64,000 bases of DNA, taken from the IMG/VR virus record IMGVR_UViG_3300027804_002057; one strand, written 5' to 3'. How positions within the stretch are numbered: position 1 is the stretch's first letter; each line of letters starts with the position of its first letter. Made by a program: the position numbers and the translations under genes. The notes beneath the pieces are model-generated. The model was not told the DNA's origin, ran no database searches, and was given only the letters and a program-made list of their open reading frames with translations. Below are positions 39,431-62,421 of the stretch, in pieces. This DNA is from a virus.

Positions 39431-40197
39431 ATACAAATTTTTTGAATGTCCTGTCCACCTCTATATCCCCAAAATGCCTGAAGGTATCCTCTATGCGTTG
39501 GCATGTTCATCATCGGAGTAAGACACGTTCCAATATCAATATAGGAATTATCGGGAAAATCTCTGAATAATTCATATACTGCCAAATTGGTGAATGTAGA
39601 AGCTGAGAATAAGAACACATGATTTTTGATGTTGTTCTCTCTAATCCATTGTTTAATTTCTTCAATTTTATCATAATCATTTATAAATGCGTTATAACCC
39701 ACTCTAAAGTCTTTTACAACAAATGGGAGTTTAGATATATCTGCATCTTTATGTCCAACAAATACACAATCTTTACTATAAAGAATTGGAAGTGTATGTG
39801 TCACAAATAAAGGATAATTGCCATTAACCCAAAGATTTGCCCATGTCAAGCTATCATCATCCCCACCATGCAAATCTAATTGAAATTTAAATGCATCATC
39901 ACCAACACAACATTTACAACTAATACCTTTATAGTAATTTGATTGTTTATGTTGATATGCTTCGATTAATTTATTTCTAAATTCTATGTGTTCCAATGGA
40001 TTATAATGTTTAAAATCTGGCGCTTGATATACACCAGGACTTTTTGTTTCACCAACTTGAATTACATCTGCACTTAATTTTAATTCTTTATTTTCTAAAA
40101 TTGATAGTTCACCATCAGAATAGCGAGCAAAACCAAAATGTTTGTTATTTCTAATCATTTCGGTAAATTTAATAAAATCTTGTCTAAAGTTCTTCAT
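39424..40197 (-). CDS. GT-D fold (DUF1792-like) glycosyltransferase
   Basis: FARYSDGE and YIDIGT motifs. Confidence 0.65.
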   Translation of the reverse strand: MKNFRQDFIKFTEMIRNNKHFGFARYSDGELSILENKELKLSADVIQVGETKSPGVYQAPDFKHYNPLEHIEFRNKLIEAYQHKQSNYYKGISCKCCVGDDAFKFQLDLHGGDDDSLTWANLWVNGNYPLFVTHTLPILYSKDCVFVGHKDADISKLPFVVKDFRVGYNAFINDYDKIEEIKQWIRENNIKNHVFLFSASTFTNLAVYELFRDFPDNSYIDIGTCLTPMMNMPTHRGYLQAFWGYRGGQDIQKICIW

Positions 40198-50488: not shown

Positions 50489-50520
50489 TAAAGATACGAA
50501 AATTATCCGATATTACCAAT
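50489..50520 (-). promoter_or_regulatory. Bacteroidota-type promoter (-33/-7)
   Basis: ATTG-N20-TATCTTTA ending 4 nt before ATG. Confidence 0.6.
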
Positions 50521-50969
50521 TAAATTTTCAACTTTAATTTAGTAATTTGCTTAGGGTCAGTACCATAAGCTTCCGCAATTTCTTTGATATGAGTTTTACC
50601 TGCGGTTGTTTGGTAAAGTATATGAACATAATCTTCAGCCTCTAACTTAGATACTTCATAGTATTTAGCTATTAACTCAATTACCCAACCTTCGTACTTA
50701 TCTGCCGAAGCTGGTTTCATATATTTTAAAAATGCTCTTGTCTTTGGTATTAATCCAATCAACGCAAGATACATTGCTTTTGGTGGAGCCTCCTGAATGT
50801 AAGGTGATATATCTGCTATCAATTCAATCCAATCCGGCTTCATAGAAAGAAAACGGAGTATCATATAGTTACTCCATGTTTTTTTATCACTTTCATCAAG
50901 CTTATCCCAATACTTTGGGTCTTTATCTTGTGTTATTGCGTTAATATGGTCAAATAAAGTTTTAGCCAT
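50520..50969 (-). CDS. Clamp loader small subunit (T4 gp62-like)
   Basis: LFDHINAI, YMILRFLSM, YYEVSKLEAEDY; near large subunit. Confidence 0.75.
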   Translation of the reverse strand: MAKTLFDHINAITQDKDPKYWDKLDESDKKTWSNYMILRFLSMKPDWIELIADISPYIQEAPPKAMYLALIGLIPKTRAFLKYMKPASADKYEGWVIELIAKYYEVSKLEAEDYVHILYQTTAGKTHIKEIAEAYGTDPKQITKLKLKI

Positions 50970-51273
50970 TTGTATCTAAATCTATTTTTGGTTGAGATGA
51001 CATTTTATCTTTTGCTTCCAATGCTCTTAATTCAAGCGGTTTAAGTGGTTCAAATTCTTCACCACAACTTCCACATATAACTAAATCAAAAGGTATAACC
51101 ATATCCTGTGCTCCACCGAATGATAACTTTGATAATCTTCTTACTTTAACAGTTGGTATGAATTTATCATATCCACATTCACACACCATTGGTACTGATT
51201 GTGATATATCAACTTTTGGATTTGTTCCTCCGGGCATTTGTGGTAATTCACCTTGTCCAATAATGTTTGCCAT
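50962..51273 (-). CDS. Zinc-ribbon hypothetical protein
   Basis: CECG...CGSCG. Confidence 0.7.
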   Translation of the reverse strand: MANIIGQGELPQMPGGTNPKVDISQSVPMVCECGYDKFIPTVKVRRLSKLSFGGAQDMVIPFDLVICGSCGEEFEPLKPLELRALEAKDKMSSQPKIDLDTNG

Positions 51274-51274
51274 A

Positions 51275-52213
51275 TTATATTACGTTTAAAATTTGTATTA
51301 ATGTTGATGCTGCTATAATTTCTTTATCAATTGCTACCGCAGATTTAGCAATACTATCACCTAAGATAAGAATTACACCGGATGTATTATCAGCTGCATA
51401 TTCATCTACTTTATCATAAAGAAGTGTGTACAATTCTGAAAATTCTGATGCTCTACTATCAATAATAGCCTGTCTTAGTTTCATATATTTATTTCTCTTA
51501 TCATCATTTGATTTAAGAATATCCAATACTTTTAACTTATAATCATTTTCTAATAGATTTTGTACATCTACTTTCAACTTACCTTTATGAGAATTCAATT
51601 GGCAAGTGTTGATTACTTTACGAATATCAGGATAACTAGCATCAATGATTGGAACTAAATCTTTTACATCAAACTCCACACCTTCAGCTTTCAAAATTTT
51701 ACTCATTTGAATAGCCACATCTTTTTTAGTTGGTGGGATAATTTGGAAAGATTGACATCTACTTTGAATTGGTTCAATTACTTTCTCCACATAGTTACAA
51801 GTCAAAATGAATCTACAATGTTTACTAAATGTTTCCATTAAGTTTCTTAGGATAGCCTGAGCGTTTTGTGACATGTAATCAAACTCATCCATTATAATAA
51901 TCTTAAATGGCTTGAATCCCATTGATGATGCAAAGTTCTTTACTTTGTTACGAACTGTATCTACGTTGTTTTCATCCGATGCGTTAATAATGATGTAATC
52001 ACAATCTAATGAATTAACAATCAATTTTGCTAATGTGGTTTTACCCGTACCCGCTCTACCATAAAGTAACAGATGCGGTACATCACCACTTTCTAAATAA
52101 GTTTCTACTTTTGATTTTAAGTGCTCATTACCTACATAATCTTCTAACTTATTAGGTCTATATTTTTCAACCCACAATGAGTGGTTGTTTTCTTCTTGCT
52201 GATATTCGAACAT
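51275..52213 (-). CDS. Clamp loader AAA+ subunit (gp44 / RFC small subunit-like)
   Basis: LWVEKYRP, GRAGTGKT, INASD, MDEFD, SRC. Confidence 0.93.
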   Translation of the reverse strand: MFEYQQEENNHSLWVEKYRPNKLEDYVGNEHLKSKVETYLESGDVPHLLLYGRAGTGKTTLAKLIVNSLDCDYIIINASDENNVDTVRNKVKNFASSMGFKPFKIIIMDEFDYMSQNAQAILRNLMETFSKHCRFILTCNYVEKVIEPIQSRCQSFQIIPPTKKDVAIQMSKILKAEGVEFDVKDLVPIIDASYPDIRKVINTCQLNSHKGKLKVDVQNLLENDYKLKVLDILKSNDDKRNKYMKLRQAIIDSRASEFSELYTLLYDKVDEYAADNTSGVILILGDSIAKSAVAIDKEIIAASTLIQILNVI

Positions 52214-52220
52214 AATTTTT

Positions 52221-52655
52221 TTATTTTCCAGTTGAACCGAATCCACCTTCGCCTCTTTCGGTGTTTGTTAATTCATCTACTTCTTTAAATTCAATTGGTG
52301 GATATGGTATAATCATAATTTGAGCAACTCTATCACCAACGATATAGGTATGCCCACCATCAATTTGGGATACACCTTTTTTATTAAATGTTGCCTGTAA
52401 TTCACCTCTATATTTACTATCAACCACACCAACACAATTTGATAATGATAAATCGGTATTTCTTACTGATGAACGAGGGAATACTAATCCTACAAATCCG
52501 TCAGGTATTTCTAATGCAATGCCCAATCCATATGTAATTTGTGTTTTAGTATCTAATATAATTGATGTTGCAACCAAATCCATTCCAGCATCACCTTCTT
52601 TGGCGTATGTTGGAATTACTGCATTAGGCTTCAGTTTCTTTATCTTCACTTCCAT
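52221..52655 (-). CDS. dut: Trimeric dUTPase
   Basis: DAGMDL, PRSS, GVVDSKYRGE, RVAQ, RGEGGFGSTG. Confidence 0.95.
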   Translation of the reverse strand: MEVKIKKLKPNAVIPTYAKEGDAGMDLVATSIILDTKTQITYGLGIALEIPDGFVGLVFPRSSVRNTDLSLSNCVGVVDSKYRGELQATFNKKGVSQIDGGHTYIVGDRVAQIMIIPYPPIEFKEVDELTNTERGEGGFGSTGK

Positions 52656-53016: not shown

Positions 53017-54228
53017 TTATCTTCCTACTTCTGATAGGTATTTTGCTTTCATTTCTTCCCAACTAATTCCGATAGCATCTATGTAGAATAAGTGTTCAGG
53101 TTTAATTCTTCCTTCATCATGTAGTTTTGTATATCTACTGATTGCGTGTTTCTTCCACCATTTGTTGATGTATTCAGTACCTTGCTTAAATTTATCTTTA
53201 AGGATTAATTGGTCTTCGGTAATTTTATCACAAAGGAAATCAGTACCATTTTCATACATCATAGCCATATACACACCTCTCTTAAATCCGTGATGATATT
53301 CAGTTGCTTTGATACCACACTCCTTAAAGATTTGTCCTAATATCTTTTGTTTGATACCACTAACAGGTCCGTTAGCTTCATATCCCATATTAGCACCATT
53401 ACGAGCTCTCTCATCTGAAATGTTATCTTTGTACCATTCAGCACGATTTTCTTTTAACCATTGATGCCAAGGGTCATAATACTTATCATCCGGCTTAATA
53501 CTAATTTTACCAGCTGATTCTCCTAATGTTTTAAATAAAGGGATACCATTGTATTGAGAATGGATACCATATAGAGATGTTGTACCTACTGCTATAAGAA
53601 CGTTTTCATATTTTTTCTTCCAATACTCTCTAACTTCAGGCACCGTAGTCATCATAGCTATTAACTTACCACCTAAGAAGTTATATCCTAAAGGTTGAGT
53701 ACATACAATAGTTGAAGCAATAGTTGTGTTGTTTAACTTACCCTTCTGAAACTTATCTTCTTTTGACCAACCAATAAAGTTATCTCTAACACCTAATGCG
53801 GTTACATCGGATGCCAATGAAATTTGTCCTAATAATTTTCCACTTGTCCTATCCTTTACATTAATCTTTACATTACGACCAGGGTTTGCTGTAAAATCCA
53901 TTGTGTGAATCATACGTCTTACTGCTGCCCATTTAGTAGATTCCTTAGGGTCTTCCACAATCTCAACGTAAGGGTCTAACGATTCAATTTCTTTTATCGT
54001 TAGCTCCTTATCATTGATATTTGTTGGTTTCCATTGAGAGTCATAATACGATGCTATTTGGGCTTTAGCCTGAATCATTGACGGTTCTTGCAACTCCACC
54101 CACTTTTTGTATAGTGTTTGTTCTTGCACAGACATCGTCATAAGATAGTCCATATTTTCTTTTAACTTTTGTTTCTCAACATCAAAGTCAAAGATAGGTT
54201 TTTGTGGTTCAGTTTCCCAAAAGCTCAT
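53017..54228 (-). CDS. DUF4338 / Druantia DruA-like protein
   Basis: NPGRN, RDNFIGW, QPLGYNFLGGKLIAM, TTSLYG..SQYN, LGESAG, HGFKRGVY. Confidence 0.75.
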   Translation of the reverse strand: MSFWETEPQKPIFDFDVEKQKLKENMDYLMTMSVQEQTLYKKWVELQEPSMIQAKAQIASYYDSQWKPTNINDKELTIKEIESLDPYVEIVEDPKESTKWAAVRRMIHTMDFTANPGRNVKINVKDRTSGKLLGQISLASDVTALGVRDNFIGWSKEDKFQKGKLNNTTIASTIVCTQPLGYNFLGGKLIAMMTTVPEVREYWKKKYENVLIAVGTTSLYGIHSQYNGIPLFKTLGESAGKISIKPDDKYYDPWHQWLKENRAEWYKDNISDERARNGANMGYEANGPVSGIKQKILGQIFKECGIKATEYHHGFKRGVYMAMMYENGTDFLCDKITEDQLILKDKFKQGTEYINKWWKKHAISRYTKLHDEGRIKPEHLFYIDAIGISWEEMKAKYLSEVGR

Positions 54229-54233
54229 ATTAA

Positions 54234-54929
54234 TTATTTAATTTCTACTAAGTAATAGTTTGATGTGTAATCTCCATCAGTAAATGATACATGTGATAAT
54301 CCTTTAGATGAGATTTTCAATGAAGATGATTTAGAACCTTTGTTAGCGGTTAAGATTGCTTTCAAATATTTTGCTGAGAATGCAATTGGTTCAACATCTT
54401 CTTTTGCTGTTGTTTCCACAGCGATTGAAATTCGATTTGAGTTGATTGAAGAATAACCCAAAATGATTTCAGCTTTTTTATCTTTTACAGTAAATGTAAA
54501 AGTATCTGCATCAGCCAATGCACCTTTTGATTTAATAAACTTATTTACAAAGTCATCATTCAAAGTAACTTCTGCATCAAAAGCAGGTAATGCTTTCAAA
54601 TCAGGTACTGCAGGAATCACCGATGGTGCTGCTAACATATATTGTACCTTAGTTCCTTTATCAGAGAACTTAACTGCTCCAGTTGTTTCTTCAACTGAAA
54701 TTGCTTCATCCAATACACTCAACAATCCTTTTAATTGAGATGTAGTGTAAATACCAAACTCACCATTAGGGAAATCAGTTTCAGCAACTGTAACATCACC
54801 TAACAATGTTTTGTCATCGGAAATCATTCTTACTGATAATTCTTTATCAGAAGATTTAATCATAACGGATTCAATCTCACCACCAAGGTTATAACGATTG
54901 ATAAAACCATCAAATTTGCTTTTGTTCAT
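54234..54929 (-). CDS. DNA polymerase sliding clamp (T4 gp45-like)
   Basis: EFGIYTTSQLKGLLSVL, VQYMLAAPSVI, YYLVE end; 231 aa; directly downstream of PolB. Confidence 0.82.
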   Translation of the reverse strand: MNKSKFDGFINRYNLGGEIESVMIKSSDKELSVRMISDDKTLLGDVTVAETDFPNGEFGIYTTSQLKGLLSVLDEAISVEETTGAVKFSDKGTKVQYMLAAPSVIPAVPDLKALPAFDAEVTLNDDFVNKFIKSKGALADADTFTFTVKDKKAEIILGYSSINSNRISIAVETTAKEDVEPIAFSAKYLKAILTANKGSKSSSLKISSKGLSHVSFTDGDYTSNYYLVEIK

Positions 54930-54964
54930 AATTGAAATTTTATATTTTAAAAGTTTATATTACA

Positions 54965-54996
54965 CAAATATACGAAAAATACTTGAAACTACCAAC
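54965..54996 (-). promoter_or_regulatory. Bacteroidota primary-sigma promoter (-33/-7)
   Basis: GTTG-N20-TATATTTG upstream of clamp gene. Confidence 0.75.
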
Positions 54997-57518
54997 TAAA
55001 ATGAAAAGAATTTTTCAGCAGTTTTAGCGGCAGATAGTACCTCACCCCATCCCAATGCTCCATAAAAGTCCTCTAATTTCTTCAATAACTCTCTTTCAAA
55101 GATTTTATCATAATCAATGTATTGAGTTACCAATTCCATAATTTCAGGTGCATCATTATATCCCTTAAATCCAAGTCCTTCCAATCCATATGGATTTTGT
55201 TTTAGATACACCCATTTAATCTTGTCACCATCTCTCATTGGTTCGTATTTAGATGGGCATTTAAAGTGTACCAACAATTGATTGTGAGCAATTGCTGCTT
55301 TAACGTGAGCCGGAGTACCAGATGCAAATTGGAACATTGCCGTTTGGTCTTTTTTCTTTGGAAGATATTTAGATAATTCTTTTACAGCCGAGTTCTTAGC
55401 AATTGAAGTTACATCCATAGTTACCAATGCTTTTTTGAAAGCCTGTATCTTATCGGTTAGTATTTCTTCATTATCACCTTTTAGAATTTGAATAAGAACC
55501 TCACCCATAAATTTACGGAACTCAGCTGGATATGATGAACGAACTACGTCCAACCCTTTAACATCCAATCTATCCATTGGAATACCATTCTCAGCCACAA
55601 TCCATTGAGCGTATCTTTTCTTAGCAATCCAAATACCACTTCGAGATACGAACTCTTTCTTAATTTGGAATCTATGTTTTTCTTTTGCTACATTGAATAT
55701 TTTTTCAGCCAACACATCATAAAAATTATTTAAGAAGTCTTGCGTTTCACCAGCAATACTATCTACTAATTTGGCAATTTCCGAATCTTCTTTTGTTTTC
55801 CAATCAGGGAATCTATGGTCTAAGATAGGTACTGCTGAAAAGAATACTGAATCCGTATCAATGTAAATGTTGTAATCACCACCTTTAGTTCCTAACTCTT
55901 TGTTGTACTTAATGTTAGCCATATCCGCAGTTGATTTAATTACGGTCTGACCTGTTAGTGTTACAGCCTCAGCGTTATCCACATCATAGAATCGGAATGC
56001 CGGCAAACCTAACACACCATAAAGAGAGTTCAATAAGATTTTTTGTACCAACTGTCTTTTCTTATAGAATGCGTACTTCTCTTTGTCACCAGCTTCACCA
56101 AACTTCTTCTCCAACTTACGGAACTCAACACGCTGATTAAACCATAAATCCAAAATATCAGGGATACAGCCGGGCTTATCGGTTTTATATAGAACACCAT
56201 TTGATGCTACCGAACATTTAGCTTCTTCAAATAGTTTCTTTAAGTTTTCTTTTGTGATTTGTCTATCACCAATTGTGTACATATCCACTTCACCCTTCAT
56301 AAACTTTTGTGCATCCCAATCGTTAATCTTACCAATCTTAGTTTCGGGACTGATGTTTACAGTCATAATGATTGATGGATATAGTGAAGTTAAGTCCAAG
56401 TCATAAATCCAATCGTATTTACCAACAATAGGTGCCTTTACATAAGCTCCAATGAATTTTTCTTCATTGTTCTCTCTAATGGCTTCCATACGTTCTTGTC
56501 TATCCGCAGGTTTGTTTGGTGCTACAATGTTCTTACGTTTAAGGTAAGTAAGCATTGCACCTTCTAAATATTTAGATGAATAAACAAAATCTTCATAAGG
56601 AACATGTCCAGCGTGACATATACCTCTACACAAATCAATGAATTGTAATTTTCTATCTAATGAAACTACCAGGTCAACGTCAATCAAGTTATACTCAATA
56701 AACTTTTCAATATCATCTTTGAATAATTGGTCCAAATTACCTTTGTATTCAATCTTACCTCTACCCAATTCTTTCATAGCGATACTATCCAAACGATAGT
56801 TATCCAATTCTGAATATGTGTATGTACGATATAATTGTAAGTAGTCCAAATAAGATACACCTGCCATAAAGAATCTCTTACGATATGGTGACCAAAAACA
56901 CTCACCAATTGGAGATAATCTATTAGCGTGCTTAGCACCTAATAATCTTTTAATACGATTGTACAAATACGGAGTATCGAAATAATCAATGTTCCAACCA
57001 GTTACAATTGTTGGATTAATCATTTCGTATAAATCTAAATACTTTAGAATCATATCCCTTTCATCTCTAAAAGGAATTACAGTTCTATTACCGGTATTAC
57101 TTTCTTTCATCTTACCGGCTTTATCCATAATCAATACCCAAAAATGGTCAGTAGCTGAATCATGCAAACCTATCGCTGTTAATTCATTCTCTGATTTTTC
57201 AACATCAGGTAATCCACTTTCCATCTCAACCTCAATATCGTATGTAAGTGTAATGTGGCCTTCAGATGGTATATCCGAATCGGTATATGTATCAACTAAT
57301 ACTCTTGTTGTTTCAGGTACATCGGATTCAAATAAATCCGGGTCATCTTTTTTAAATTTGAATATCTTAGTAAGCTTATCACCATAAAGAGAAGTGTATT
57401 CACCTCTATCTGCTTTTTCGTAAGCATATCTACTATAAGGGAAAGTGCGGTATCCCAATTTATCATCCCAAATATGCACTAAATTCTTTTCTCTTTGATA
57501 ATAACAATTCTGATACAT
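54996..57518 (-). CDS. Family B DNA polymerase (T4 gp43-like)
   Basis: YDIE, GWNIDYFD, YNLID exonuclease motifs; DLTSLYPS, KILLNSLYG, YIDTDS, KKRY. Confidence 0.97.
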   Translation of the reverse strand: MYQNCYYQREKNLVHIWDDKLGYRTFPYSRYAYEKADRGEYTSLYGDKLTKIFKFKKDDPDLFESDVPETTRVLVDTYTDSDIPSEGHITLTYDIEVEMESGLPDVEKSENELTAIGLHDSATDHFWVLIMDKAGKMKESNTGNRTVIPFRDERDMILKYLDLYEMINPTIVTGWNIDYFDTPYLYNRIKRLLGAKHANRLSPIGECFWSPYRKRFFMAGVSYLDYLQLYRTYTYSELDNYRLDSIAMKELGRGKIEYKGNLDQLFKDDIEKFIEYNLIDVDLVVSLDRKLQFIDLCRGICHAGHVPYEDFVYSSKYLEGAMLTYLKRKNIVAPNKPADRQERMEAIRENNEEKFIGAYVKAPIVGKYDWIYDLDLTSLYPSIIMTVNISPETKIGKINDWDAQKFMKGEVDMYTIGDRQITKENLKKLFEEAKCSVASNGVLYKTDKPGCIPDILDLWFNQRVEFRKLEKKFGEAGDKEKYAFYKKRQLVQKILLNSLYGVLGLPAFRFYDVDNAEAVTLTGQTVIKSTADMANIKYNKELGTKGGDYNIYIDTDSVFFSAVPILDHRFPDWKTKEDSEIAKLVDSIAGETQDFLNNFYDVLAEKIFNVAKEKHRFQIKKEFVSRSGIWIAKKRYAQWIVAENGIPMDRLDVKGLDVVRSSYPAEFRKFMGEVLIQILKGDNEEILTDKIQAFKKALVTMDVTSIAKNSAVKELSKYLPKKKDQTAMFQFASGTPAHVKAAIAHNQLLVHFKCPSKYEPMRDGDKIKWVYLKQNPYGLEGLGFKGYNDAPEIMELVTQYIDYDKIFERELLKKLEDFYGALGWGEVLSAAKTAEKFFSF

Positions 57519-58664
57519 CTATTCACTTAATTTTTTATGTAATACTGAAAACATTTTTGTATCGTTTTCTGATAATTCGTTTGCTCTTTTTAATGCTGCC
57601 AATTCCCTCTCACTTCTATAAGTATCGTCATCTAATATCTTATCAAGTAATTCAAACAATTCTTTTTGGTTATTAAAAAACATACCATTCGGTTCTATTT
57701 CTCTATAACAATCTGAATTATGAAATATCATTGGAGTTCCATTCATCATACAATCCGTTGCAGACACACTCCATCCATAATTTGTTTGTAATGGTTGTAT
57801 TCCAACTTTACATAATTGTAATTTTTCATAGTATGCTTGCTTTGATGCCTCTTTTGTTGTATCAAACCAAGGTAACTTTTTATCCTTATGTTGATATTGT
57901 GGCACCCATACTTTAAAATCTTGTCTATGTTTTTTGTAAGCTTCCATATAACCAACAAACTTATTATAGTTTTTATATCCAGCCGTTCTATGATTGAATA
58001 CAATTATGTTATGCTTATTTGGATTTGGTTGTGATATAATTTTATCTTTCATCACTCCCAAATTCCAAACACATAGTTTTTCATTCAATTTGTTTAAAAC
58101 ATCATCACTAAACCATTGCTTTGCTTCTTCAATAACTTTGTTCTTTTGGTCTTGTGTATTGATAAAGCAAGTATCCATTTGTAGTACACCCAATATTTCG
58201 TTGGGTAACCAAAGTTCTTTTGCTTTACCAGGTCTATTATCTACACCATTACAATAACTCATCTCCCACCAATGACAATAACCAATTATTTTTGTATCAA
58301 CAGTTTTCTTATATCTACCCACCACATTCCAATCAGGCAGATGCGAATAGATAATATCATAATCTGTATTCTTTAACACACCAACTAATTCTTCTGATGG
58401 GAAACATCTCTGATTCATCATATCGCCAGGTATAGGGACTTCAATTTGCTTAACGTTATCTAACATATTAAGCTTTGCACATACATTACCTTTTGGCATT
58501 ACTACATACCAAAAATATTCACCATAATTCTTTAAGGCATTAACGTGATTGAAAAGGACATCCACAAAGGAGTCCTTTTCAATATTTGAGTAGTTAGTAA
58601 TATTTGGTATCACTAATACTTTTCTTGCCGTATGGTAATTAACAGTTGTTTCCCAAAATGACAT
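57519..58664 (-). CDS. GT-B glycosyltransferase next to PolB (candidate DNA glycosyltransferase)
   Basis: YDIIYSHLPDW, IVFNHR, YGWSVSATDCMMNGTP; sits in replication operon apart from glycan genes. Confidence 0.7.
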   Translation of the reverse strand: MSFWETTVNYHTARKVLVIPNITNYSNIEKDSFVDVLFNHVNALKNYGEYFWYVVMPKGNVCAKLNMLDNVKQIEVPIPGDMMNQRCFPSEELVGVLKNTDYDIIYSHLPDWNVVGRYKKTVDTKIIGYCHWWEMSYCNGVDNRPGKAKELWLPNEILGVLQMDTCFINTQDQKNKVIEEAKQWFSDDVLNKLNEKLCVWNLGVMKDKIISQPNPNKHNIIVFNHRTAGYKNYNKFVGYMEAYKKHRQDFKVWVPQYQHKDKKLPWFDTTKEASKQAYYEKLQLCKVGIQPLQTNYGWSVSATDCMMNGTPMIFHNSDCYREIEPNGMFFNNQKELFELLDKILDDDTYRSERELAALKRANELSENDTKMFSVLHKKLSE

Positions 58665-58674
58665 TTAATTTAAT

Positions 58675-60366
58675 TTATTTGTTAGTGAACAACATACCCG
58701 CCACCATTCTAATTTCATCAGGTGTCAATGCAGTTGTTCTATTATCTACATCTAATATATCTAATAAACTTTGTGTTTTACTATACTTTACAAGTTTACA
58801 TACATACTTAACATCATCAGCATCACATCCTGCTGATTTGTTTCGGTTTACTTCATTTAGTATTAATTGACCATTGTACACTTCAGTAGGTCCACCATAA
58901 GTGTATGCTATAATGTGGTCAGCTCTCCATTCTGATTGTGGATAGTCACTAAGTTTCTTACCGGTCTTTCTACATAATCCATTTTGGATAGTATATAATT
59001 CATCTCTTTGTTGCTGAGAGAATTCTCTTGGATTTTTGTTTGCTTTTGAGAATCCCCAGCTTTCAAAGTCAAAACCATCTAATAGTGGCATCAGAGTAAA
59101 CTCCAAGTCATCTATACGAGCACCACCATTGAATACAGAGCGGTATCCATATTCCTCACCTTTGTTTACTTTCTTAGATGTGGTTTTTTTAACCATCCTA
59201 CCATCAGAATCAATAGATTCATATCTTTGGTGCGGATTATGTTTGAAACTCTTTTTACCAGCAAAGAGTGTAATTCTATCTCTAAGTGTTTCTAAGAATT
59301 TTGCTGAATTGAAGTTCTTATCCAATACTTGCCAATTTTGGTTAATCAATCCTATTTCATATATTAGGCAGAATACCTTTTTAATGTTACCTTTCTTCCA
59401 ATTTTGTTTTGCACCAATTTTACCAGTTCTTACAACTCTATCTGTCATAGATAGAATTATCTCAAGATTTTTAATGAATTGGATACCTTCTTTTATTGTA
59501 AGGAATTCATTAAATTCTTCACTCCTATACATTTCCTCTAACGGACCTGCCGTAGAATCTAAACCGGTACATTCGTTACTTGTAAACCCACCTTGCTTCA
59601 TATACAACATACACAATGAAACAATCTCATCGGTTTCTCTTTTTGTTGTTTTCAACCCAATATGGGCCAACTTTTGGCCTACTTTTTCGGAAAGGAATTT
59701 GAAGGCTTCACTACTATCTACTGCTCCATATTTTCTACATAAGTCTGAAACATATGAATTGATTGCGTTTCTCTTATCCGCTGCACTCATATCGTGCAAA
59801 TCGTTTAGTGTTAGGAATATATCTTCCGCCTCATCATCAGATATATTTGAATGTATTGTTAAATCGAAGTATATACTTGTTTGGTATATTTCTTCCAATT
59901 CAGAATGTTTATCGGTAATTTGTTTCCAGCTCATATCACTCAAGTCATATTCGGTTTCAATTCCAGTTTCAGAATTTACCAATGTGATGATTAAGTTTTT
60001 TGGAGTTCTAATTTTGTTTGTGAAGAACGCCAGAATAGTTCTGGAACGATGCCCACCATCCAATATTTCGTAGAATCCATCTTGAGTTAATCTAAGATGA
60101 ATTTTTTGGAATGGTTTAAGTTTTAATACATCTCCTATAAGATGTTGTTGCCATATTTCACCAGTTCCCCACGCCACATCTACATAGTGGTAAGGTCTTT
60201 GGAATTTTGGAGATGGGTTGATTTTACCCTGATGATAATAATCAAGGAATTTTCTTAGAGTCCAATATTGGTTTTGGATGTTTGAGTGCTTTTCTAAATA
60301 CACTCTTTTGAATTCGTTAATGGTTGCGAATCTGATTGCACCATCAAGTAATGGTTGATTACTCAT
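58675..60366 (-). CDS. DUF262 (ParB-like) plus C-terminal HNH protein, GmrSD/SspE-like nuclease
   Basis: PKFQRPY, ILDGGHRS, FLTLN DUF262 motifs; ADHIIAYTYGGPT..NGQLI...NRNKS HNH. Confidence 0.8.
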   Translation of the reverse strand: MSNQPLLDGAIRFATINEFKRVYLEKHSNIQNQYWTLRKFLDYYHQGKINPSPKFQRPYHYVDVAWGTGEIWQQHLIGDVLKLKPFQKIHLRLTQDGFYEILDGGHRSRTILAFFTNKIRTPKNLIITLVNSETGIETEYDLSDMSWKQITDKHSELEEIYQTSIYFDLTIHSNISDDEAEDIFLTLNDLHDMSAADKRNAINSYVSDLCRKYGAVDSSEAFKFLSEKVGQKLAHIGLKTTKRETDEIVSLCMLYMKQGGFTSNECTGLDSTAGPLEEMYRSEEFNEFLTIKEGIQFIKNLEIILSMTDRVVRTGKIGAKQNWKKGNIKKVFCLIYEIGLINQNWQVLDKNFNSAKFLETLRDRITLFAGKKSFKHNPHQRYESIDSDGRMVKKTTSKKVNKGEEYGYRSVFNGGARIDDLEFTLMPLLDGFDFESWGFSKANKNPREFSQQQRDELYTIQNGLCRKTGKKLSDYPQSEWRADHIIAYTYGGPTEVYNGQLILNEVNRNKSAGCDADDVKYVCKLVKYSKTQSLLDILDVDNRTTALTPDEIRMVAGMLFTNK

Positions 60367-60561: not shown

Positions 60562-61362
60562 TTACCAAAAATTGGCCGCACCTTCTGGTGCTTCGTATGT
60601 AGTTAGGTGATGTACTATTTCTGTATTAAAAGATGCCGTATCTTTTGGGTAAGGTTTGATTTCATGCTTTAATCGTTTCATCAAATCCTTCTTTTCTTTT
60701 TTATCTTGCGCAAGTATCTGAACATATCTATGCTTTGGTGGTTCTTCCCTTCTCCAAAACTCTTTATATCCTTGCTTACCAATTTCTAATTTCAAATGGT
60801 CTAAGTTACCACTACCCCACATTGAGAATACTGTCCTACTATGAATCCATTGATAAGGGTCTTTGTGTAATGATATACCCCAGTTTGGCATCAATGCAAT
60901 ATCCGTAGATAATCCCTGATAAATCCAATTGGTGGCTTGATAGATTCCACCCAAATGCGATTGTCCATTATCAGCGTATGAAAGTAATACCTTTATATTT
61001 TTATCGTGCTCTTTTAACCATTTGAAAGATTGTCCTAATGCATATGATTCAATATTAGAACCATAACCATCATCACAATATAATCGTGTCAATTCTAAAA
61101 TGTTATCTTTGGTTAAACCTTCACAAATAGAAGTTGATGCTTTTGCTCCAACTGGGAAACCATAGATTAAACAACCTATAAGTTTATCACCATCAAAGGT
61201 ATTTGCATCTTCTGATTTGTAATATATTCCAATTGCATATCTACAAGCTGTCCAAGCATGAGTATAATGTTTCTTTACAATCATATCTTTAGCAATACTC
61301 TTTGCTATTGGTGCTACATACACTTTGGATACATCACAATAATTTTTACCTTCTACTTTCAT
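60562..61362 (-). CDS. Mom-like (GNAT-fold) DNA modification protein, paralogue A
   Basis: KKHY, ILELTRL, LLSYADNGQSHLGGIYQATNWIYQG, KHRYV, PYPK. Confidence 0.8.
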   Translation of the reverse strand: MKVEGKNYCDVSKVYVAPIAKSIAKDMIVKKHYTHAWTACRYAIGIYYKSEDANTFDGDKLIGCLIYGFPVGAKASTSICEGLTKDNILELTRLYCDDGYGSNIESYALGQSFKWLKEHDKNIKVLLSYADNGQSHLGGIYQATNWIYQGLSTDIALMPNWGISLHKDPYQWIHSRTVFSMWGSGNLDHLKLEIGKQGYKEFWRREEPPKHRYVQILAQDKKEKKDLMKRLKHEIKPYPKDTASFNTEIVHHLTTYEAPEGAANFW

Positions 61363-61634: not shown

Positions 61635-61666
61635 CAAATATACGAAATTATTTTGAATCTACCAAA
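61635..61666 (-). promoter_or_regulatory. Bacteroidota primary-sigma promoter (-33/-7)
   Basis: TTTG-N20-TATATTTG overlapping 3' end of upstream gene. Confidence 0.75.
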
Positions 61667-62421
61667 TCTATCGGGTCCATTCTATGAACCTCATCAATAA
61701 TATCTAATTCCACCTTTGGATAGGGGAATACCTCATGTTTAAGCGATTTTAAGAGTGCTTTACGCTCCTTCTTATCTTTTGTAAGGATATACACATATCG
61801 GTGCTTACGGGGTTCTCTTTTAATCCAGAATGGGCTTGTAACCATTGTCTGAATTATCTTTGGGTCATTCGTTCCGTACTTCACATAGGATGTTCGAGAA
61901 TGATGCCATTCATCATCTTCACTCCATTTGAAAGACCAACTATCTGACCATCTGATTTTATTACCTTGATATATCCAATTGGTAGCTTGATATACCGTTC
62001 CTAAGTGCCCAGCGTTTGGGTCTGAATAAGATATAAGTGCTTTGATACGAGGTACATTAGTTCTTAACCATTCGAAAGTTTGTCCAACGAACCAACTTTC
62101 AATGTTACTACCATATCCATCGAATACGAATAATCTTGTCAATTCTAATACACCATCTCTAGGAAGTAATTCGGAAATTGATGCTCCGGCATTTCTACCA
62201 ACCGGGTCACCATAACAGGCTACACCAACTAATTGCTCATTCACTCCACTAAAGAATGAATGCTCATCATCGGAAAGATAAAATAAGCCTATGGCAAAGG
62301 ATACCTTTGTCCATATCCCACTGTAATGGTTATTGACAATAATATCCTTTGCAATATTCTTATTGATTTCTCTTATTGAGAATTTGGATGTATCACAATA
62401 TTGTTTACCTTCTACTTTCAT
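61648..62421 (-). CDS. Mom-like (GNAT-fold) DNA modification protein, paralogue B
   Basis: NNHYSG, VLELTRL, LISYSDPNAGHLGTVYQATNWIYQG, KHRYV, PYPK. Confidence 0.8.
   Translation of the reverse strand: MKVEGKQYCDTSKFSIREINKNIAKDIIVNNHYSGIWTKVSFAIGLFYLSDDEHSFFSGVNEQLVGVACYGDPVGRNAGASISELLPRDGVLELTRLFVFDGYGSNIESWFVGQTFEWLRTNVPRIKALISYSDPNAGHLGTVYQATNWIYQGNKIRWSDSWSFKWSEDDEWHHSRTSYVKYGTNDPKIIQTMVTSPFWIKREPRKHRYVYILTKDKKERKALLKSLKHEVFPYPKVELDIIDEVHRMDPIDLVDSK

What the first reader, a model, noticed from the sequence alone, without database searches (positions are those of the whole stretch)
54211..58664. Identical N-terminal hexapeptide MSFWET on two unrelated enzymes flanking PolB and the clamp
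Seen: the DUF4338 protein starts ATG AGC TTT TGG GAA ACT and the GT-B starts ATG TCA TTT TGG GAA ACA. The peptide is identical but the Ser and Thr codons differ, which points to protein-level selection. Mom-A ends GAANFW, the ORF before it ends GKKYW, the 62418 HTH ends NEFWSGSL and PolB ends AEKFFSF. Established: T4-type gp43, gp33 and gp55 dock on gp45 through short terminal aromatic peptides. Inference: a Phe-Trp terminal tag recruits the modifying enzymes to the sliding clamp or another shared partner.
Basis: partly seen in the sequence, partly recalled or inferred. Interest (0 to 1): 0.78.

Follow-up and report, generated by a model that had tools for sequence, protein, structure and literature searches.

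The report
Clamp-docking tags on phage DNA-modifying enzymes
In this uncultured marine T4-like phage, a glycosyltransferase and a DruA-like acyltransferase flanking the DNA polymerase and sliding-clamp genes each carry a conserved Phe-Trp-acid tag on a floppy N-terminal tail. The tag most likely hooks them onto the phage's sliding clamp so that DNA is modified as it is copied, but binding is untested.

Summary
Both proteins start MSFWET, with different Ser and Thr codons, and no other real gene in the window does.

The exact hexapeptide match is incidental: only 2 of 47 related loci carrying both genes share an identical one. The conserved feature is F-W-[D/E] within 1-3 residues of the start Met. 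It is kept in 119 of 120 GT homologues, in all DruA orthologues of the clade, and in tandem DruA paralogues.

AlphaFold2 leaves both tails disordered. Mom-A carries the mirror form, [F/Y]W at the C-terminus, in 39 of 39 orthologues. PolB always ends FF[S/A/G]F.

In more distant T4-like marine phages, DruA and GT are still a gene pair inside the replication module. There the GT N-tail (for example MLDKFY, MTLAKFF, MNLDQFF) matches the local PolB clamp-binding tail [S/T]L[D/E]xFF. A TAGT DNA glycosyltransferase there ends SLENFF. T4 alpha-GT is known to bind gp45.

Best reading (about 0.55): a PIP-like clamp-docking peptide for replication-coupled DNA modification.

The scan reached the same reading earlier on related phages (e1-5361891, e1-5361909, e1-5699393).

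The parts
58647..58664 (-). N-terminal tag MSFWET of the GT-B glycosyltransferase
   Evidence: FW[D/E] is kept in 119 of 120 database homologues at 60-95% identity and in representatives at 54% and 43% identity. AF2 gives residues 1-3 pLDDT below 50 and residues 1-13 as coil.
57519..58664 (-). GT-B (GT4-like) glycosyltransferase, 381 aa, ending directly before the PolB start
   Evidence: Pfam PF00534 and PF13439 hits below cut-off. AF2 pLDDT 91.8. Foldseek matches MshA, BshA and PimA with E down to 3e-12.
54996..57518 (-). gp43-type family B DNA polymerase; the C-terminal tail ...AEKFFSF is encoded at 54999-55019
   Evidence: Pfam. 52% identity to Microcystis phage Mel-JY01 PolB, which ends ...KFFNFK. 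The tail FF[S/A/G]F-COOH is kept in nearly all clade PolB hits, even where the preceding residues differ.
54234..54929 (-). gp45-type sliding clamp, 231 aa: the proposed docking partner
   Evidence: phrog_223 'DNA polymerase processivity factor', E 1.3e-15, full length. No Pfam or PDB sequence hit. 41 distinct orthologue sequences (45-98% identity) in the related loci.
54211..54228 (-). N-terminal tag MSFWET of the DruA-like protein
   Evidence: MxFW[D/E]T is found in all clade orthologues. W4 is an invariant column even against pelagiphage-type proteins at 35% identity. AF2 gives residues 1-9 pLDDT below 50.
53017..54228 (-). DruA/DUF4338-family protein, 403 aa, with a GNAT / Mom-like core and an about 110-aa N-terminal domain
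   Evidence: PF14236 at 66 bits. The best Foldseek hit is phage Mu Mom 8bv8, followed by GNATs, all weak (E about 0.01). DUF4338 is called a GNAT domain in PMC10853773.
60562..61362 (-). Mom-A, 266 aa, with the C-terminal tag ...GAANFW (FW codons at 60565-60570)
   Evidence: PF25680 Mom, 153 bits. 39 of 39 distinct orthologues end [F/Y]W-COOH after a variable Pro/Glu/Ser/Asn-rich linker.
61648..62421 (-). Mom-B paralogue, 257 aa, without the tag; serves as an internal contrast
   Evidence: PF25680, 148 bits. 0 of 30 orthologues end in [F/Y]W.
50520..52246 (-). Clamp-loader genes: gp44-like (51275-52246), a 103-aa ORF, and gp62-like (50520-50969)
   Evidence: phrog_168 at 3e-79 and phrog_225 at 5e-17. 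These show a T4-type clamp system.

Best explanation
The shared feature is a short linear docking motif: an aromatic pair F-W followed by an acidic residue, sitting on a flexible tail within 1-3 residues of the N-terminus. Mom-A carries the same pair as its last two residues.

The motif is this clade's version of the T4-type clamp-interaction peptide (T4: LDFLF; cyanophage and pelagiphage PolB: [S/T]L[D/E]xFF; this clade's PolB: FFxF-COOH). It inserts its two aromatic side chains into the hydrophobic pocket of the phage gp45-type clamp.

The trimeric clamp would then carry the GT-B glycosyltransferase, the DruA-like GNAT and Mom-A behind the polymerase, so that newly made DNA is modified during or just after synthesis.

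What is shown: the motif exists, its conservation and specificity, the predicted disorder of the tails, the resemblance to polymerase tails, and the genomic embedding in the replisome module.

What is inferred: physical binding to the clamp, use of the pocket, and co-replicative action.
For: 1. Conservation on variable backgrounds. 119 of 120 GT homologues have M-x(0-1)-[FYW]W and 117 are followed by D/E. More remote GTs read MNNFWD and MNFWE. All DruA orthologues, and both tandem paralogues in L039/L040, keep FWD/E.

2. Specificity. In 80 related loci with 10-kb flanks, only these two families carry the motif. In a 98%-complete 186.6-kb relative, only these two plus one 82-aa membrane protein do.

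3. Both tails are low-confidence coil in otherwise confident AF2 models. W4 of DruA is nevertheless invariant down to 35% identity. That combination is the signature of a linear motif.

4. Mom-A ends [F/Y]W-COOH in 39 of 39 orthologues behind a hypervariable linker. PolB ends FF[S/A/G]F.

5. In distant lineages the gene order gp44-DruA-GT-(TAGT)-PolB recurs, with DruA beside the GT in 50 of 80 loci. The GT N-tails there read MLDKFY, MTLAKFF, MNLDQFF and MDFFEF. PolB there ends [S/T]L[D/E]xFF. The PolB-derived pattern L..F[FYLW] occurs in the first 12 residues of 15 of 37 distinct GT N-termini against 3 of 536 other ORFs. A TAGT DNA glycosyltransferase ends SLENFF, TLEEFYA or HDFF.

6. Pelagiphage DruA has L-E-x-Q-W, in register with PolB L-E-x-F-F.

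7. Precedent. T4 gp43 ends SLDFLFG and gp55 ends SLDFLYEAND. LDFLF is the gp45-interaction motif (PMC6212786). T4 alpha-GT co-purifies with gp45 (PMC13216743).
Against: - No binding or docking test was obtained.
- FW[D/E] at an N-terminus is not identical to the clade's PolB tail (FFxF at a C-terminus), so a different pocket or a different partner is possible.
- The clamp clients in the papers read here use C-terminal or internal-loop motifs, not N-terminal ones.
- The 370-aa DruA type of the distant lineages starts MILSPEDTLYAY and has no obvious motif.
- A GT with MNFWE sits next to a DruA gene in a 34.8-kb contig with a terminase and no recognised clamp nearby (the DNA was not retrievable).
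- The statistics are inflated because the GT sequences are related to each other.
Confidence: 0.55

Rival explanations
1. The FW tag is a docking peptide for a shared partner other than the clamp. Candidates are the polymerase itself, the phage SSB, a scaffold that assembles the modifying enzymes into one complex, or the enzymes binding each other.
For: The same evidence for a linear motif applies. FW[D/E] differs from the PolB tail FFxF. DruA and GT travel as a gene pair even outside a recognisable clamp context, which fits mutual or scaffold binding. From general knowledge, acidic linkers ending in an aromatic residue are also how SSB-type tails dock on their partners.
Against: In other lineages the GT tail copies the local PolB clamp-binding tail in register, and TAGT carries the same tail. 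This points to the polymerase's own partner, the clamp. No candidate alternative partner is conserved next to these genes except replisome proteins.
Confidence: 0.2
2. The FW pair acts within the enzyme or on the substrate. It might be a wedge that stacks into DNA during base flipping, or a lid over the donor site, and it evolved independently in each enzyme.
For: All three enzymes must reach a base in duplex DNA, and aromatic wedges are common in base-flipping enzymes (general knowledge). W4 of DruA is ancestral within its family.
Against: The tails are predicted disordered and detached from the folds. The motif sits at the N-terminus in two enzymes and at the C-terminus behind a hypervariable linker in a third. 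The obligatory neighbouring acidic residue would repel DNA. The distance from Met varies from 1 to 3 residues.
Confidence: 0.12
3. The shared start has no common function. It could be chance, an RNA-level or translation-start signal, or a T4-style capsid-targeting or processing peptide.
For: A scan of about 250,000 windows will meet chance hexapeptide matches. Exact identity is seen in only 2 of 47 related loci. T4 internal proteins do share an N-terminal targeting peptide (general knowledge).
Against: The core is conserved in both families across 43-95% identity, while codons, position 2 and upstream DNA vary. This excludes chance and an RNA signal. Asp is the commonest residue after FW, whereas T4 prohead protease needs Glu. 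The tail is only 5 residues long, and sugar- or acyl-donor-dependent enzymes have no obvious use inside a capsid.
Confidence: 0.06

Closest known systems
T4/RB69 gp45 clamp-interaction peptides (gp43 ...SLDFLFG, gp55 ...SLDFLYEAND, gp33, and the DNA ligase loop LDFLF)
   Same: A short hydrophobic/aromatic peptide with an adjacent acidic residue, on a flexible segment, shared by otherwise unrelated DNA-acting proteins of a phage with a gp43/gp44/gp62/gp45 replisome. The polymerase of this clade also ends in an aromatic tail.
   Different: The core is F-W rather than L-D-F-L-F. In two clients it lies at the extreme N-terminus, whereas the T4 examples are C-terminal or in a loop. The clients are DNA-modifying enzymes. 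Binding is not shown.
T4 alpha-glucosyltransferase-gp45 interaction (Sommer et al. 2004, as cited in PMC13216743, which repeated the pull-down)
   Same: A GT-B DNA glycosyltransferase of a T4-type phage that associates with the sliding clamp, proposed to couple glucosylation to replication.
   Different: The window's GT is not a member of the alpha-GT family: it has no PF11440 hit, only weak GT1/GT4 hits, and its fold is nearest MshA/BshA. The passages of PMC13216743 read here name no clamp-binding motif in alpha-GT. T4 alpha-GT starts MRICIF and has no N-terminal tail.
PIP-box and PIP-like peptides of PCNA clients (general knowledge: N-terminal in DNA ligase I; also present in DNMT1)
   Same: A tool-belt logic in which a DNA-modifying enzyme rides the clamp behind the fork. 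N-terminal placement has precedent.
   Different: No Q-x-x-[LIM]-x-x-[FY][FY] consensus is present. The motif is only three residues plus its context, and the clamp is the phage gp45 type.
Phage Mu Mom and the Druantia DruA (DUF4338) GNAT-like proteins
   Same: The carriers of the tag are Mom-family (PF25680) and DruA-family (PF14236) proteins.
   Different: The proteins lie in a phage replisome operon, not in a Druantia defence island. No ORF longer than 1008 aa, and so none of DruE size, exists in the window. Terminal FW tags are not part of the family definitions.

Membership tests
gp45/PCNA clamp-interacting peptide (PIP-like linear motif) | Lies in a flexible terminal tail or loop, outside the folded domain | tested here: met
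   AF2: GT residues 1-3 have pLDDT below 50 and residues 1-13 are coil. DruA residues 1-9 have pLDDT below 50 and the chain is coil to residue 14. The rest of both models is confident.
gp45/PCNA clamp-interacting peptide (PIP-like linear motif) | Conserved in orthologues while flanking residues vary | tested here: met
gp45/PCNA clamp-interacting peptide (PIP-like linear motif) | Resembles the clamp-binding tail of the cognate polymerase | tested here: inconclusive
   In the window clade the enzymes have x-x-F-W-[D/E] and PolB has E-K-F-F-S-F, so only the di-aromatic core is shared. In distant lineages the homologous GT tail and a TAGT tail match PolB [S/T]L[D/E]xFF in register.
gp45/PCNA clamp-interacting peptide (PIP-like linear motif) | A cognate clamp and clamp loader are encoded by the same genome | tested here: met
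   phrog_223 clamp, phrog_168 and phrog_225 loaders.
gp45/PCNA clamp-interacting peptide (PIP-like linear motif) | Physical binding in the interdomain hydrophobic pocket of the clamp | not testable with these tools
DruA / DUF4338 (PF14236) | Sequence match above Pfam's gathering score | tested here: met
   66.1 bits against a cut-off of 27, covering residues 82-332.
Druantia defence system | DruA accompanied by the large DruE helicase and other Dru genes | tested here: not met
   The largest ORF in the 64-kb window is 1008 aa and lies in the structural region. The neighbours are PolB, the clamp, a dUTPase and clamp loaders.
GT-B fold glycosyltransferase (GT4-like) | Two Rossmann-like domains, with a fold match to solved GT4 enzymes | tested here: met
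   Foldseek matches MshA 3c4q, BshA 6n1x and PimA 2gej, with TM 0.64-0.69 and E down to 3e-12. The Pfam sequence hits alone are below cut-off.
T4 alpha-glucosyltransferase family (PF11440) | Sequence membership | tested here: not met
   No PF11440 hit at E 0.01. tblastn against 50,697 phage records finds nothing.
T4-type capsid-targeting sequence | An N-terminal peptide of about 10 aa ending in [L/I]-x-Glu, cleaved by the prohead protease, on packaged proteins | tested here: not met
   The motif is 4-6 residues long, and the residue after FW is Asp in most DruA and many GT orthologues. Packaging itself was not tested.

The most novel reading that the evidence does not exclude
Marine T4-like phages may use a small 'terminal aromatic code' to load a whole DNA-hypermodification line onto the three pockets of one sliding clamp. 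The line would comprise the GT4-like GT, TAGT, DruA-like GNATs and Mom. In this clade the code has split into an FF type for the polymerase and an FW-carboxylate type for the modifiers. In the FW-carboxylate type, the Asp or Glu after N-terminal FW would mimic the free C-terminal carboxylate of FW-COOH. Polymerase and modifiers could then share or partition the clamp without displacing each other.
Probability: 0.2. Interest if true: 0.75.

Novelty: new variant of a known kind. Interest (0 to 1): 0.6.

Why it matters
If the tags do bind the clamp, these very abundant ocean phages (hundreds of metagenomic relatives) modify their DNA at the replication fork. One clamp would carry several unrelated enzymes.

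That would explain how hypermodification can be complete enough to evade host nucleases. It would give a simple sequence rule, a terminal aromatic pair matching the polymerase tail, for picking out DNA-acting enzymes among unannotated phage genes. It would also extend the single T4 precedent (alpha-GT with gp45) to GNAT, Mom and TAGT enzymes.

The tag also offers a handle for biochemistry on an uncultured phage, since peptides and a recombinant clamp suffice.

Tried and rejected
No result exists, so nothing can be concluded either way.
- tblastn of the GT against cultured-phage records found no match. Context therefore had to come from IMG/VR contigs.
- The contig with the 43%-identical GT (P0245, MNFWE) next to a DruA gene and a terminase has no retrievable DNA. 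Scans of the metagenome and viral collections did not find it. I therefore could not check whether its DruA also starts with FW, or whether that phage has a clamp.
- I looked for a gp55 late sigma factor in the complete relative G001, to read its C-terminus as a second known clamp client. BLAST with the pelagiphage gp55 proteins found nothing.
- Microcystis phage Mel-JY01, the nearest cultured PolB relative, has no MxFW[D/E] gene and no GT, DruA or Mom genes. Only the PolB tail KFFNF is shared.
- The third pattern matches in related genomes are 13-15-aa spurious frames, apart from one 82-aa membrane protein.
- An RNA-level signal was rejected because codons and upstream DNA vary.
- A capsid-targeting peptide was rejected because of the motif's length and the Asp after FW.
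- The clamp gave no PDB sequence hit.
- Whether the gp62 N-terminus contacts the clamp pocket could not be settled from the papers read.
Full report
**Observation.** Two adjacent-operon genes on the minus strand start with the same six residues. The 403-aa ORF 54228..53017 starts ATG AGC TTT TGG GAA ACT. The 381-aa ORF 58664..57519 starts ATG TCA TTT TGG GAA ACA. The degenerate DNA pattern for MSFWET occurs exactly twice in the window, against none in 100 shuffles. No other credible gene in the window begins with an aromatic-Trp-acid motif. Both starts are the first ATG after the upstream stop codon.

**Identity of the genes and the phage.**
- The 403-aa protein is a DruA/DUF4338 family member (PF14236, 66 bits).
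- The 381-aa protein has only sub-threshold GT1/GT4 Pfam hits. Its AF2 model (pLDDT 91.8) is a GT-B fold nearest MshA, BshA and PimA.
- Between them lie a gp43-type PolB and a 231-aa gp45-type clamp (phrog_223). gp44- and gp62-type clamp loaders lie downstream.
- Upstream are two Mom-family genes and a GmrSD-like DUF262-HNH gene.
- PolB is 52% identical to that of Microcystis phage Mel-JY01 and about 33% identical to cyanophage gp43.
- The nearest cultured DruA homologues are in pelagiphages Mosig and HTVC008M.
- Hundreds of metagenomic relatives exist. One IMG/VR relative of 186.6 kb is rated 98% complete.
- The window therefore comes from an abundant, uncultured marine T4-like phage.

**Is the shared start more than chance?** Across 120 database homologues of the GT (60-95% identity), 119 start M-x(0-1)-[FYW]W and 117 follow with Asp or Glu. 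Cluster representatives at 54% and 43% identity start MNNFWD and MNFWE. All DruA orthologues of the clade start M-x-F-W-[D/E]-T. So do both copies of a tandem DruA duplication in L039/L040.

Codon tables over 53 and 41 distinct start regions show free variation at position 2 (S, T, N, K, Q, A, E, I), at positions 6-8 and in the upstream DNA. D and E interchange through GAT, GAC and GAA, while F-W never changes. That is selection on the peptide, not on the RNA.

Exact identity of the two hexapeptides is seen in only 2 of 47 related loci that hold both genes. The distance of FW from the Met varies (MFWD, MSFWD, MNKFWD, MMEFWE). The real shared feature is FW[D/E] close to the N-terminus, and the perfect match in this window is incidental.

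The motif is also specific. In 80 related loci with 10-kb flanks, only these two families carry it. In five long relatives, including the near-complete genome, the pattern finds only these two genes, some 13-15-aa spurious frames and one 82-aa membrane protein. The reversed control pattern finds nothing.

**Nature of the tails.** AF2 places neither tail. GT residues 1-3 score below 50 and residues 1-13 are coil before the first Rossmann strand. DruA residues 1-9 score below 50 and the chain is coil to residue 14. Yet W4 of DruA is an invariant alignment column even against pelagiphage-type proteins of 35% identity. In those proteins it sits in D-P-x-L-E-x-Q-W-[E/D/N]-x-[F/W], 6-25 residues from the start. 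Conserved residues in a disordered tail are the signature of a short linear interaction motif.

**Other termini.** Mom-A ends [F/Y]W-COOH in 39 of 39 distinct orthologues, behind a hypervariable Pro/Glu/Ser/Asn-rich linker. The paralogue Mom-B never does (0 of 30). PolB ends FF[S/A/G]F-COOH in nearly all clade hits, even where the preceding residues are unrelated. Mel-JY01 PolB ends KFFNFK.

**Evidence on the partner.** The comparative evidence, however, points to the clamp.

A profile scan for distant GT relatives (32-37% identity, about 447 aa) returned 80 viral loci. The gene order gp44-DruA-GT-...-PolB recurs among them, and DruA sits beside the GT in 50 of 80. DruA plus GT is therefore an old gene pair, resident in the replication module of T4-like marine phages.

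The GTs in those loci also have an N-terminal tail of 15-18 residues before the first strand. It reads MTLTKFLTEQ, MTLAKFFTDQ, MLDKFYTD, MNLDQFFED, MSLFVEE, MSLYFDDE or MDFFEFG. PolB in the same loci ends [S/T]-L-[D/E]-x-F-F-[A/V/G], as do the pelagiphage polymerases (SLEAFFG, NLEDFF). This is the T4 type of tail. T4 gp43 ends SLDFLFG and gp55 ends SLDFLYEAND, and LDFLF is the crystallographically defined gp45-interaction motif (PMC6212786).

The PolB-derived pattern L..F[FYLW] is present in the first 12 residues of 15 of 37 distinct GT N-termini, against 3 of 536 other ORFs in the same loci. The P value is inflated by relatedness, but the contrast is large.

In the same loci, a TAGT-family DNA glycosyltransferase (PF20691, phrog_842) between the GT and PolB ends SLENFF, TLEEFYA or HDFF. 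The pelagiphage DruA motif L-E-x-Q-W is in register with L-E-x-F-F.

At least four unrelated DNA-modifying enzyme families in these phages thus carry, at one end or the other, a copy of the local polymerase's clamp tail. In the window's clade the polymerase tail has become FFxF, and the enzymes carry FW.

There is also a biochemical precedent. T4 alpha-glucosyltransferase, but not beta-GT, co-purifies with gp45 (PMC13216743, which cites Sommer et al. 2004).

**Proposed mechanism.** The FW pair, with its neighbouring carboxylate, would insert into the hydrophobic pocket of the gp45-type clamp. The carboxylate is the Asp/Glu side chain in the N-terminal version and the chain terminus in Mom-A. 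The clamp would then carry the GT, the DruA-like GNAT and Mom-A behind the polymerase. Its three pockets would allow a tool-belt arrangement. The DruA core resembles Mu Mom and GNATs only weakly (Foldseek E about 0.01), but DUF4338 is treated as a GNAT in PMC10853773. The locus therefore encodes three acyl- or carbamoyl-transferase-like enzymes and one sugar transferase, consistent with a hypermodified base. The motif and its properties are shown; binding and co-replicative action are inferred.

**Caveats and rivals.**
- FW[D/E] is not the same as FFxF, and it is N-terminal. It might use another site or another partner, such as the polymerase, SSB, or a complex of the enzymes themselves. I give this 0.2.
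- The 370-aa DruA type of the distant lineages starts MILSPEDTLYAY, without an evident motif.
- One GT with MNFWE lies beside a DruA gene in a 34.8-kb contig with a terminase and no recognised clamp in view. Its DNA could not be fetched.
- An intramolecular or DNA-wedge role (0.12) fits poorly with the disorder, the variable spacing, the acidic neighbour and the C-terminal version on Mom-A.
- Chance, an RNA signal or capsid targeting (0.06 together) are contradicted.

**Comparison with known systems and novelty.** This works like the T4/RB69 gp45 client peptides and like PIP boxes. As a sequence motif it is a new variant: an FW core, N-terminal placement, and new client families. The GT is not a member of the T4 alpha-GT family. 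The DruA-like protein is not part of a Druantia system.

Earlier follow-ups in this scan, on related phages, reached the same reading, also without a binding test (e1-5361891, e1-5361909, e1-5699393). Those are AI notes, not independent evidence.
- the predicted disorder of both tails
- the whole-genome specificity of the motif
- the DruA-GT pair conservation
- the in-register match of distant GT and TAGT tails to the local PolB tails

**Verdict.** Novelty: new variant of a known kind. Interest 0.6. Confidence in clamp docking about 0.55.

Noticed in passing
L112-L191 (for example L137:7918-16594, L139): DruA-like and GT4-like GT genes form a conserved adjacent pair inside the replication module (gp44-DruA-GT-...-PolB) in 50 of 80 distant T4-like viral contigs. 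In one contig with a terminase the pair is also adjacent (P0245 locus). This looks like an uncharacterised two-enzyme DNA-modification module.
   Followed up: partly
L161:6620-7423, L177:3822-4628, L169:1492-2349: TAGT-family DNA glycosyltransferases (PF20691, phrog_842) between the GT and PolB end in SLENFF, TLEEFYA or HDFF. This is the same tail as the local PolB (SLESFF / SLDSFF).
   Followed up: partly
window 50520-50969 (-); L192:6343-6906 (T4 gene 62): The gp62-like clamp-loader subunit starts MAKTLFDH, and L-F-[D/Q]-H is kept near the N-terminus across the clade behind a basic extension of variable length. T4 gp62 starts MSLFKDD. The gp62 A domain is reported to occupy the canonical clamp pocket (PMC3331839), but whether these N-terminal residues do so was not settled.
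   Followed up: partly
G001 (L097-L106): 39493-39912, 65008-65370, 98824-99273, 103037-103255, 138967-139578: In the near-complete relative, further proteins end in aromatic pairs: a T7-type endonuclease I (...TQSFF), a third Mom-like protein between the clamp and PolB (...HQWFG), and small unknown proteins (...NKFF, ...GDFW, ...TSWW). These are possible further clamp clients, or gp33-like factors.
   Followed up: partly
L124:5324-5542, L116:12093-12314, L171: Small 73-74-aa proteins in distant T4-like contigs end ...SETDFW, ...MTDYWS or ...MTDYWL. They have no family hit.
   Followed up: no
L039 and L040: 11124-13497: Tandem DruA paralogues of 386 and 403 aa. Both start M-x-F-W-D.
   Followed up: partly
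window 58675-60366 (-): A GmrSD-like protein (DUF262 N-domain plus a C-terminal HNH, phrog endonuclease VII) sits between Mom-A and the GT. It has homologues in only 8 of the 80 related loci, so it is an accessory insertion. This is a type IV restriction-like nuclease in a phage that probably hypermodifies its own DNA.
   Followed up: no
window 257-49328: A long one-strand run of sugar-nucleotide and glycosyltransferase genes is interleaved with large structural-looking genes. The first stage noted it separately. I did not examine it here.
   Followed up: no
window 54229-54245 and 58665-58690: Neither tagged gene has a Shine-Dalgarno-like sequence; both leaders are A/T-only (taattaat / aaattaaattaa). 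No gp55 homologue was found in G001 by BLAST with the pelagiphage gp55 proteins. Gene expression signals in this clade may therefore differ from those of T4.
   Followed up: no
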